Position numbers: made by a program
Shown here: positions 57,101-60,100 of the stretch, piece after piece
Position numbering within the stretch: the stretch's first letter is position 1
Layout: each line of letters starts with the position of its first letter
Assembly: GCF_030013205.1 (NCBI RefSeq)
Contig: NZ_CP122648.1
Length of the DNA: 64,000 nucleotides
Reading direction: 5' to 3' (one strand)
DNA from: Escherichia coli
GTDB lineage: Bacteria > Pseudomonadota > Gammaproteobacteria > Enterobacterales > Enterobacteriaceae

Positions 57101-60100
57101 GGCTGACTGGTGTAAATAAACCGATGCGCGTGCGTGCGCTGCATGCACAAAACCAGCCAACAGAAACCGCCCATGCCGGGCAGCGTATCGCGCTTAACAT
57201 CGCGGGTGATGCGGAAAAAGAGCAGATTAACCGTGGCGACTGGCTGCTTGCCGATGTGCCGCCAGAGCCGTTCACGCGGGTGATTGTCGAGCTTCAAACC
57301 CATACGCCGCTGACCCAGTGGCAGCCGCTGCATATTCACCACGCCGCCAGCCACGTTACGGGACGCGTTTCGCTGCTGGAAGATAGCCTTGCCGAGCTGG
57401 TGTTCGACACGCCGCTGTGGCTGGCGGATAACGATCGCTTAGTGTTGCGCGATATCTCGGCCCGCAACACGCTGGCGGGGGCGCGTGTGGTAATGCTTAA
57501 CCCGCCGCGTCGCGGTAAGCGTAAGCCGGAATATCTGCAATGGCTGGCGTCTCTTGCACGAGCGCAGAGCGATGCCGATGCGTTATCTGTTCATCTGGAA
57601 CGCGGCGCGGTTAACCTTGCCGATTTCGCCTGGGCACGGCAGCTCAACGGCGAAGGGATGCGCGAACTATTGCAACAGCCTGGCTATATTCAGGCTGGTT
57701 ATAGCTTGTTGAATGCGCCGGTTGCCGCCCGCTGGCAGCGGAAAATTCTCGACACATTAGCGACTTATCATGAGCAACATCGCGATGAACCTGGTCCTGG
57801 GCGCGAACGTCTGCGACGTATGGCGTTGCCAATGGAAGATGAAGCGCTGGTACTGTTGCTGATTGAAAAGATGCGCGAAAGCGGCGACATCCTCAGTCAT
57901 CACGGCTGGCTGCATCTGCCGGATCACAAAGCAGGCTTCAGCGAAGAGCAGCAGGCCATCTGGCAAAAAGCAGAGCCGCTGTTTGGTGACGAACCGTGGT
58001 GGGTGCGAGACCTGGCAAAAGAGACGGGAACCGACGAGCAGGCAATGCGTCTGACGCTACGTCAGGCGGCGCAGCAGGGGATAATTACCGCGATCGTTAA
58101 AGATCGTTATTACCGTAACGATCGGATTGTCGAGTTTGCCAATATGATCCGCGATCTCGATCAGGAATGTGGTTCAACCTGCGCGGCGGATTTCCGCGAT
58201 CGCTTAGGCGTAGGCCGAAAACTGGCAATTCAAATTCTGGAATATTTTGACCGCATTGGTTTTACGCGTCGTCGGGGAAATGATCATTTACTGCGCGACG
58301 CAGGTGATGCTGCCAACTTACTGATTTAGTGTATGATGGTGTTTTTGAGGTGCTCCAGTGGCTTCTGTTTCTATCAGCTGTCCCTCCTGTTCAGCTACTG
58401 ACGGGGTGGTGCGTAACGGCAAAAGCACCGCCGGACATCAGCGCTATCTCTGCTCTCACTGCCGTAAAACATGGCAACTACAGTTCACTTACGCCGCCTC
58501 TCAGCCCGGTACGCACCAGAAAATCATTGATATGGCCATGAATGGCGTCGGATGTCGCGCCAGTGCACGCATTATTGGCGTTGGCCTCAACACGATTTTC
58601 CGCCACTTAAAAAACTCAGGCCGCAGTCGGTAACCTCGCGCATACAACCGGGCAGTGATGTGATTGTCTGCGCTGAAATGGACGAACAGTGGGGCTACGT
58701 CGGTGCTAAATCACGTCAGCGCTGGCTGTTTTACGCGTATGACAGGATGCGGAGGACGGTTGTGGCGCACGTCTTCGGTGAACGCACTCTGGCCACACTG
58801 GAGCGTCTTCTGAGCCTGCTGTCGGCCTTTGAGGTCGTGGTATGGATGACGGATGGCTGGCCGCTGTATGAATCACGCCTGAAGGGAAAGCTGCACGTTA
58901 TCAGCAAGCGTTATACTCAGCGCATTGAGCGGCATAACCTGAATCTGAGACAACATCTGGCAAGGCTGGGACGGAAGTCACTGTCGTTCTCAAAATCGGT
59001 GGAGCTGCATGACAAGGTCATCGGGCATTATCTGAACATAAAACACTATCAGTAAGTTGGAGTCATTACCCAGGACGTAAGGGAAAACGCCTCTGACTGC
59101 ATCATCGAATTTGAGTTTTGCCACCCCTGAAATAACGTTAAGCACATTGCCGATGGGCGGTGTAATTAAGCCGATTGAGCAGTTAATGATAAACATGACA
59201 CCGAAATAAATCGGATCGATTCCTGCCTCTTTAACTAAAGGCATTAATACCGGGGTAAGAATTAATACCGTCGGCGTTAAATCCATGACCATGCCGACAA
59301 TCAGGATAGCCACCATAATGACGATAAACAGCAGACGCGGTGAATCGACCAGCGGTTGCAGTAAATCAGAAACCATCATCGGCAGTTCAGCAATGGTGAT
59401 CAGCCAGGCGGAAACTTGTGCCGAGGCTACCAGAAACATCACCACTGAGGTCGTTTTCGCTGCGCCAATGAGCACATGCCAAAGTGTGGCGAAGGTCATT
59501 TCACGGTAAATAACTGTGGCGACAAACAGCGCATAGAAAGCAGCAACGGCCCCGGCTTCGGTAGGGGTAAACAGACCGGAGCGAAACCCGCCAATAATGA
59601 TGACTGGAAGAAACAGCGCCCAGATACCGGAGACAAAAGAGTGCCAGATTTCCTGCATCGTTGCTTTTTGCTGGCGGGGTAAATTAAGGCGACTGGCCTG
59701 CCACCACCAGGTAAGCATCAGCGTTGCGCCCATCATCATGCCAGGGGCAATGCCCGCCATAAACAGCTTACTGATGGATAATCCGCTGGAAACGCCGAAA
59801 ATAATAAACGGAATGGAAGGGGGAATAATTGGCGCGATAATGCCGCCAGAGGCAATCAGCCCCGCCGCCCGGTTGACCGGGTAGTTGGCGCTGCGCATCA
59901 TCGGCACCAGTAGAGCGGCAACGGCGGCGGTATCCGCAACGGCAGAACCAGAAAGGCTTGCCATAATCATAGCCGCCAGCACGCCGACGTAGCCCAGCCC
60001 GCCTGGTTTATGCCCCACCAGTTTCATCGGCAGGTCAACAATGCGTTTTGACAAGCCGCCCGCATTCATGATTTCACCCGCCAGCACAAAGAACGGTATC

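What the first reader, a model, noticed from the sequence alone, without database searches (positions are those of the whole stretch)
58279..58329. SelB C-terminus is a fusion with IS1-encoded residues
Seen in sequence: the selB frame runs 608 native codons, then continues 8 codons into the IS1 inverted repeat (GDAANLLI) before a stop. Established knowledge: the C-terminal domain of SelB binds the SECIS hairpin of selenoprotein mRNAs. Inference: replacing the last few native residues may be neutral or may weaken SECIS binding; with selA intact this bears on whether selenoprotein synthesis (formate dehydrogenases) is fully functional.
Basis: partly seen in the sequence, partly recalled or inferred. 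Interest (0 to 1): 0.4.

Follow-up and report, generated by a model that had tools for sequence, protein, structure and literature searches.

The report
IS1 deletion junction clipping selB's tail
An IS1 insertion sequence sits on the last six codons of the selenocysteine factor gene selB in a pig-pathogenic E. coli clone and has deleted about 16 kb next to it; the protein very probably still works, so this is an ordinary rearrangement scar with one open caveat.

Summary
selB (56479-58329) has 608 native codons, then 8 codons of the IS1 left inverted repeat (GDAANLLI) and a TAG. Reference E. coli SelB has 614 residues, so LLFPEK is lost.

The 768-bp IS1 (58303-59070) has no 9-bp target duplication. 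Its right end abuts yiaN, cut after codon 401 of 425 and fused to 26 IS1 codons. Against a close intact relative, 15,936 bp are missing (yiaY to yiaO).

The window is 100% identical to E. coli ETEC4079. The same selB-IS1 junction occurs in 14 of 5,426 complete E. coli genomes, all from pigs or wild boar. Two of them are typed O139:H1 ST1. They carry four different right-hand endpoints, so one IS end is fixed and the other varies.

Function is probably retained. The winged-helix fold ends at residue 605. The crystallised SECIS-binding fragment is 487-607. Moorella and Aquifex SelB end at the equivalent of 608 and 607. selA, selC, fdhF and fdoG are intact in this genome.

Caveat: L610-F611 is conserved in 33 of 35 enterobacterial tails and is lost here. 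Interest is low.

The parts
55091..56482 (+). selA (selenocysteine synthase), intact, 463 aa, overlapping the selB start by 4 bases
56479..58302 (+). native part of selB, codons 1-608: EF-Tu-like domains I-III plus four winged-helix domains
58303..58329 (+). IS1-encoded tail of the SelB fusion (GDAANLLI, 58303-58326) and its TAG stop (58327-58329), all inside the left inverted repeat of IS1
58303..59070 (+). complete IS1 element of 768 bp, with the transposase genes on the same strand as selB and no flanking 9-bp direct repeat (left CGCGACGCA, right CAGGACGTA)
58303..58325 (+). IS1 left terminal inverted repeat (IRL); a promoter-like match at 58310-58337 lies over it
58358..58633 (+). insA (GTG start, 91 aa; Zn-ribbon and HTH InsA domains); the A6C slippery run for the -1 frameshift is at 58609-58615
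   Evidence: RefSeq note 'programmed frameshift'
58552..59055 (+). insB' frame (DDE_Tnp_IS1 domain), made as an InsAB' fusion by frameshifting
59048..59070 (+). IS1 right terminal inverted repeat (IRR); the deletion junction lies between 59070 and 59071
58990..60273 (-). truncated yiaN fused to IS1: native codons 1-401 (59071-60273), 26 IS1-encoded codons (58993-59070, [26 protein letters not shown]) and a stop (58990-58992). RefSeq calls it a normal yiaN

Best explanation
An IS1 copy became joined to selB between codons 608 and 609, most simply by insertion (inferred). DNA to the right of the element was then lost in IS1-associated one-sided deletions (inferred from comparison). These kept the element and its selB junction and moved only the right-hand endpoint. 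In this genome 15,936 bp are gone and the IS1 right end now abuts codon 401 of yiaN (shown). Because IS1 base 1 falls on codon position 1, selB reads 8 codons into the left inverted repeat and stops at a TAG (shown). The product is a 616-residue SelB in which LLFPEK is replaced by GDAANLLI. The GTPase, the tRNA-binding domains and all four winged-helix domains are untouched, and the new tail is probably a disordered appendage. The factor is therefore expected to keep delivering Sec-tRNA to UGA/SECIS sites, with at most a modest loss of efficiency (inferred, not tested). The clear functional loss is elsewhere. The 2,3-diketo-L-gulonate/L-xylulose (yiaK-S) pathway is broken: yiaO, lyxK, sgbH, sgbU and sgbE are deleted and yiaN is truncated. 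aldB, yiaY, a fic gene, hicAB and a GH127/MFS/AraC sugar cluster are also lost.
For: Junction and frame. IS1 identity. There is no target duplication at any of the four right junctions. The intact relative CFSAN018748 has an identical SelB 1-608 and flanks 99.5-99.9% identical, and carries the missing genes in order. Four deletions of 5,528, 10,187, 15,936 and 16,123 bp share the selB endpoint, and their IS1 copies differ from the window copy by 0-1 bases. The 14 genomes fall into four endpoint classes of 2, 6, 1 and 5. Growing one-sided IS-adjacent deletions are documented in the LTEE (PMC11708052). For retained function: the Pfam model of the last winged helix ends at residue 605. The AF2 model of the native fragment has its last strand at 602-605, and the core is unchanged in the fusion model. 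The model superposes on 2pjp at 0.8 A. The 2pjp chain, the E. coli SelB mRNA-binding domain crystallised with SECIS RNA, is residues 487-607 only. Moorella and Aquifex SelB end at the equivalent of 608 and 607. The allele persists in isolates from Korea, France and Belgium, and the exact protein is on 48 contigs. selA, selC, fdoG with TGA196 and fdhF with TGA140 and its hairpin are intact in the same genome.
Against: L610-F611 is kept as [LM][FY] in 33 of 35 distinct enterobacterial SelB tails, and the two exceptions are a truncation and another IS1 fusion. The native tail is modelled with fairly high confidence (last-8 mean pLDDT 83), whereas the IS1 tail scores below 50. Part of that difference follows from the alignment, which contains no homologues of the IS1 tail. 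The C-terminal domain also contacts 16S rRNA h16 and protein S4 on the ribosome (bioRxiv 10.1101/2025.02.04.636165), so a crystal fragment that binds RNA does not prove full activity. Intact selenoprotein genes are weak evidence, because the clone may be too young for decay. No genome with the simple insertion and its target duplication was found, so the order of events is inferred. No functional assay is available.
Confidence: 0.75

Rival explanations
1. The fusion is a hypomorphic or null selB allele. Losing the conserved L610-F611 pair and adding a floppy 8-residue tail weakens SECIS or ribosome binding, or destabilises winged helix 4. Selenoprotein (formate dehydrogenase) synthesis would then be reduced or lost in this pig-pathogenic clone.
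For: The [LM][FY] pair is conserved at 610-611 in 33 of 35 tails. The native tail is predicted ordered and the IS1 tail disordered. The C-terminal domain contacts h16 and S4 on the ribosome.
Against: The fold ends at residue 605. The fragment 487-607 crystallised in complex with SECIS RNA. Moorella and Aquifex SelB stop at the equivalent position. Residues after 611 vary freely in length (1-12) and sequence. Among the four sequenced members compared, the only further change in selB is one conservative substitution, A362G in ETEC4068.
Confidence: 0.2
2. The deletions arose by homologous recombination between the selB-proximal IS1 and other IS1 copies that had inserted, in the same orientation, at four different sites to the right. 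They would not be transposase-driven adjacent deletions.
For: These genomes carry many IS1 copies: 11-21 matching places per record. Recombination between direct IS copies leaves one IS and no target duplication, exactly as seen. PMC11708052 lists both routes as common.
Against: It needs four separate prior IS1 insertions in a 16-kb stretch of one clone, and none was seen as an intermediate among 5,426 genomes. The retained IS1 is identical or differs by 1 base in all four classes. That result is compatible with either route, so it does not discriminate. The outcome for selB is the same in both cases.
Confidence: 0.3
3. The junction is an assembly or sequencing artefact, with a repeat collapsing selB onto yiaN.
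For: IS1 is a multi-copy repeat that often breaks or mis-joins assemblies. One short-read contig with another selB-IS1 fusion ends inside the repeat.
Against: The left junction is identical in 14 complete genomes from separate studies and three countries, and W13-16 and P15-25 were sequenced with PacBio long reads. The window's right junction is also present in the RefSeq record.
Confidence: 0.01

Closest known systems
IS-adjacent (one-sided) deletions, as catalogued for the E. coli long-term evolution experiment (PMC11708052); described classically for IS1 (own knowledge, not checked here)
   Same: The IS is retained at the junction and there is no target-site duplication. One end is fixed while the other endpoint moves outward in related isolates. 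The deletions are of kilobase scale.
   Different: The events here are inferred from natural isolates, not watched over time. No precursor with a simple insertion was sampled, so recombination between two IS1 copies cannot be excluded.
E. coli SelB (P14081; PDB 5lzb-5lzd, 2pjp)
   Same: Residues 1-608 align without gaps, with 5 substitutions against K-12. All Pfam domains of SelB are present, and the gene keeps its position downstream of selA with the 4-base overlap.
   Different: The last six residues LLFPEK, including the conserved L610-F611, are replaced by eight IS1-encoded residues, giving 616 instead of 614 residues.
Other IS1 insertions at the selB 3' end in E. coli
   Same: Sixteen further complete genomes have an IS1 in the same orientation a short distance (about 20 to 360 bp) beyond this junction. 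In EP91B it is inserted inside the stop codon (TA|G) with a deletion reaching yiaL. One metagenome-derived contig has a fusion after codon 610, tail GNGANLLI. The DNA just past the junction is visibly A+T-rich, which is the kind of target IS1 is said to prefer (own knowledge).
   Different: Those events leave SelB intact or cut it at another codon. They lie in unrelated strains and involve other IS1 variants; the EP91B copy differs from the window copy at 48 of 768 positions.

Membership tests
IS1 family insertion sequence | Length of about 768 bp with imperfect terminal inverted repeats of about 23 bp | tested here: met
   58303-59070 is 768 bp. The IR arms of 23 nt are 83% complementary.
IS1 family insertion sequence | insA and insB' frames with InsA and DDE_Tnp_IS1 domains and an A6C frameshift site | tested here: met
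   PF03811, PF12759 and PF03400 match with E-values of 3e-21 to 1e-74. AAAAAAC lies at 58609-58615. RefSeq notes a programmed frameshift.
IS1 family insertion sequence | A 9-bp (sometimes 8-bp) direct target duplication flanking a simple insertion | tested here: not met
   The left flank is CGCGACGCA and the right flank CAGGACGTA, and no flanking direct repeat was found. This does not question the identity of the element. It shows that the present flanks were not neighbours before, meaning a deletion or recombination.
Bacterial SelB (selenocysteine-specific elongation factor) | [quoted passage not shown] | tested here: met
   Pfam GTP_EFTU, GTP_EFTU_D2, Beta-barrel_SelB, SelB-wing_1_3, SelB-wing_2, SelB_WH_2nd_bact and SelB-wing_3 are all above their cut-offs. 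The match to 5lzb scores 1370 bits.
Bacterial SelB (selenocysteine-specific elongation factor) | Native C-terminus as in E. coli references (614 aa, ending ...RDALLFPEK) | tested here: not met
   The sequence ends ...RDAGDAANLLI and has 616 aa.
Bacterial SelB (selenocysteine-specific elongation factor) | Binds SECIS RNA and supports UGA recoding in vivo | not testable with these tools
   Only indirect evidence is available: the fold is intact, 2pjp covers 487-607, and the selenoprotein genes are intact.
IS-mediated adjacent deletion | IS retained, one endpoint constant and the other variable among relatives, and the intervening DNA present in an intact relative | tested here: met
   Four right endpoints share one left junction in 14 genomes. 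The intact order is seen in CFSAN018748.
IS-mediated adjacent deletion | A precursor with the simple insertion at the fixed end | tested here: not met
   None of the 14 genomes with this junction keeps selB-distal DNA next to the IS1.

The most novel reading that the evidence does not exclude
The pig edema-disease lineage that carries this allele (two members typed O139:H1 ST1) is a natural SelB hypomorph. Loss of the conserved L610-F611 tail motif would lower selenocysteine insertion into formate dehydrogenases H, N and O. Anaerobic formate metabolism in the gut would then be altered in a successful pathogen lineage, and the short enterobacterial SelB tail would gain a function in ribosome or SECIS engagement that the crystal fragments missed.
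Probability: 0.15. Interest if true: 0.45.

Novelty: new member of a known kind. Interest (0 to 1): 0.15.

Why it matters
The biological stakes are small. The case shows that two genes annotated as normal in RefSeq, selB and yiaN, are in fact IS1 fusion genes at the edges of a deletion of about 16 kb.

The selB-IS1 junction is a precise marker for one lineage of pig and wild-boar E. coli, at least part of which is the O139:H1 ST1 edema-disease clone. Its four nested right-hand endpoints could serve as sub-lineage markers.

If the conserved L610-F611 pair proves to matter, these field isolates would be a ready-made natural mutant. They could be used to ask what the enterobacterial SelB tail does.

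Tried and rejected
1. A homologue search with the C-terminal 130 residues returned only short fragments, not full-length SelB. It could be used only to compare tails.
2. I looked in papers for a test of C-terminal tags or truncations of a few residues of E. coli SelB. The only deletion found removes the whole WH3/4 (S488-K614), and no paper addresses the last six residues. My recollection that C-terminally His-tagged SelB is active could not be verified and is not used.
3. Consensus scans found no intrinsic terminator downstream of selB in the window or in the intact relative. Loss of a terminator is therefore neither supported nor excluded.
4. Simple insertion was rejected because there is no target duplication and the right flank maps 15.9 kb away.
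5. Assembly artefact was rejected because 14 complete genomes share the junction.
6. fdnG and selD of ETEC4079 were not located, so the claim of an intact pathway covers only selA, selB', selC, fdhF and fdoG.
7. The AF2 comparison of native and fused tails is only suggestive, because low confidence for a tail with no homologues in the alignment is expected.

Full report
**What is in the sequence**

The ORF at 56479..58329 (+ strand) encodes 616 residues. Residues 1-608 align without gaps to E. coli SelB of PDB 5lzb, which has 614 residues. They differ from K-12 SelB at 5 positions and are identical to SelB 1-608 of the swine isolate CFSAN018748.

After codon 608 (GCA, 58300-58302) the sequence is GGTGATGCTGCCAACTTACTGATTTAG. 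This is the left end of an IS1. Read in frame it gives GDAANLLI and a TAG at 58327-58329. In K-12 and CFSAN018748 the gene continues TTA TTA TTT CCG GAA AAA TAA, that is LLFPEK*. selA (55091-56482, 463 aa) is intact.

**The element**

The stretch 58303-59070 is 768 bp long. It has 23-nt terminal inverted repeats that are 83% complementary. insA carries the Zn-ribbon and HTH InsA domains, and the insB' frame carries DDE_Tnp_IS1, with E-values from 3e-21 to 1e-74. An AAAAAAC run lies at 58609-58615, and RefSeq annotates a programmed frameshift. It is the only copy of this IS1 end in the window. The transposase genes run in the same direction as selB.

**It is a deletion junction, not a simple insertion**

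The 9 bp to the left of the element (CGCGACGCA) and to its right (CAGGACGTA) differ, and no flanking direct repeat exists.

The right flank is yiaN on the minus strand, cut after codon 401 of 425. It reads on through 26 IS1 codons, giving the ORF 58990..60273. In K-12 coordinates the two flanks lie 12,031 bp apart, at 3746007-3758037.

A much closer intact relative is CFSAN018748, from swine in Denmark. Its flanks are 99.5% and 99.9% identical to the window. It carries, in order: selB, yiaY, fic, aldB, a type I restriction gene, hicA, hicB, GH127, MFS, AraC, sgbE, sgbU, sgbH, lyxK, yiaO and yiaN. Against that order the window lacks 15,936 bp.

**Where the window comes from and who shares the junction**

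The window is 100% identical to the chromosome of E. coli ETEC4079 (NZ_CP122643.1, pig faeces, Belgium). RefSeq annotates both selB and yiaN there as ordinary genes.

The selB-IS1 junction is found in 14 of 5,426 complete E. coli genomes. All are from pigs or wild boar, in Korea, France and Belgium. W13-16 and P15-25 are typed O139:H1 ST1, the edema-disease clone. The paper describing them does not mention selB or IS1 (PMC8798679). The exact 616-residue protein is recorded on 48 contigs in the large protein collection.

**A nested series of deletions**

The 14 genomes share the left junction but have four different right junctions:

| Genomes | Number | Right flank | Deleted relative to CFSAN018748 |
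|---|---|---|---|
| ETEC4068, ETEC4075 | 2 | about 500 bp upstream of hicA | 5,528 bp |
| K_EC180 and five others | 6 | upstream of the AraC-family gene | 10,187 bp |
| ETEC4079 (the window) | 1 | yiaN codon 401 | 15,936 bp |
| W13-16 and four others | 5 | about 187 bp deeper into yiaN | 16,123 bp |

The retained IS1 is identical to the window copy in three classes and differs by one base in the fourth. None of the four has a target duplication.

One fixed end, one variable end, a retained IS and no duplication form the signature of IS-adjacent deletions that can grow stepwise. This pattern is documented in the LTEE (PMC11708052). Recombination with further IS1 copies would give the same products and cannot be excluded. 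No genome with the simple insertion was found.

**Does the fusion harm SelB?**

Evidence for little or no harm:
- The Pfam model of the last winged helix ends at residue 605.
- An AF2 model of native residues 487-614 (mean pLDDT 95) has its last strand at 602-605, followed by coil. It superposes on 2pjp at 0.8 A.
- 2pjp is the E. coli SelB mRNA-binding domain crystallised with SECIS RNA. Its chain is residues 487-607 only, so it lacks everything that the IS1 replaces.
- Moorella thermoacetica SelB (1lva, 2ply) ends five residues after the equivalent of H603. Aquifex aeolicus SelB (4zu9, 582 aa, native termini according to PMC4605307) ends four residues after it. Both therefore stop at the equivalent of 608 and 607.
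- Residues after 611 vary in length (1-12) and in sequence among enterobacteria.
- In the fusion model the WH3/4 core is unchanged, and only the eight foreign residues fall below pLDDT 50.
- ETEC4079 keeps selC, fdoG with TGA at codon 196, and fdhF with TGA at codon 140 and its downstream hairpin.
- Among the four lineage members compared (ETEC4079, ETEC4068, K_EC180, W13-16), SelB shows only one further substitution, A362G in ETEC4068.

Evidence for caution:
- Of 35 distinct tails among enterobacterial-type SelB sequences, 33 keep [LM][FY] at positions 610-611. The two exceptions are a truncated entry and another IS1 fusion.
- The native tail is modelled with fairly high confidence, with a mean pLDDT of 83 for the last eight residues.
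- The C-terminal domain also touches 16S rRNA h16 and protein S4 on the ribosome (bioRxiv 10.1101/2025.02.04.636165).
- The intactness of the selenoprotein genes says little if the clone is young.

My estimate is about 0.75-0.8 that the allele supports selenoprotein synthesis at or near wild-type level. I put the chance of a measurable defect at about 0.2.

**What is clearly lost**

yiaO, lyxK, sgbH, sgbU and sgbE are deleted, and yiaN is cut inside its DctM domain. The yiaK-S pathway is therefore broken. aldB, yiaY, a fic gene, a type I restriction gene, hicAB and a GH127/MFS/AraC cluster are also gone.

**Context**

The selB 3' flank attracts IS1 repeatedly. Sixteen further complete genomes carry an IS1 in the same orientation about 20-360 bp beyond this junction. 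In EP91B it sits inside the stop codon, changing TAA to TAG, with a deletion reaching yiaL. A Logan contig holds a fusion after codon 610 with the tail GNGANLLI. Other unrelated genomes show IS1- or IS5-bounded losses between selB and yiaN/yiaM.

**Verdict**

The finding is a real and correctly read feature, and it is of a well-known kind. It is best described as the left edge of an IS1-associated deletion of about 16 kb that marks a pig and wild-boar E. coli lineage. SelB is probably functional. Interest is low, at 0.15.

Noticed in passing
window 58990-60273 (minus strand): yiaN is truncated after codon 401 of 425 and fused to 26 IS1-encoded residues. RefSeq nevertheless annotates it as a normal 427-aa YiaN permease. 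Its partner genes yiaO, lyxK, sgbH, sgbU and sgbE are deleted.
   Followed up: yes
L006, L001, L004, L005 (ETEC4068, K_EC180, ETEC4079, W13-16): Four nested deletions of 5.5, 10.2, 15.9 and 16.1 kb share the selB-IS1 junction within one pig and wild-boar lineage. They could serve as sub-lineage markers.
   Followed up: yes
L002 3174-3941 (E. coli EP91B): An independent IS1 (48 differences from the window copy) is inserted inside the selB stop codon. It turns TAA into TAG, leaves SelB at 614 aa, and carries a deletion that reaches yiaL.
   Followed up: partly
L014 2584-2976 (Logan contig SRR16525705_1809): There is a second SelB-IS1 fusion, after codon 610 (tail GNGANLLI). The contig ends inside the IS1 repeat, and selA and selB are split into several short ORFs. 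This could be real decay or a poor assembly.
   Followed up: partly
rows H15-H28 and rows H62-H76 (other E. coli genomes): IS1 insertions recur a few tens to hundreds of bp downstream of selB. IS1- or IS5-bounded losses between selB and yiaN/yiaM/yiaL occur in unrelated strains, which suggests an insertion and deletion hot spot.
   Followed up: partly
window 1821-3113 (minus strand): RefSeq flags coaBC as a pseudogene 'missing C-terminus'. The window nevertheless has one uninterrupted coaBC frame running to a stop codon after ...[12 protein letters not shown], so the flag looks like an annotation artefact.
   Followed up: partly
L013 20205-21808 (ETEC4079, about 30 kb outside the window): An IS2 copy lies about 280 bp from the tRNA-Sec gene selC. 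selC itself is annotated as intact.
   Followed up: no
window 50026-54156 (minus strand): An RHS core protein gene of 1376 aa lies next to yibF. The same gene carries an internal stop in K_EC180.
   Followed up: no
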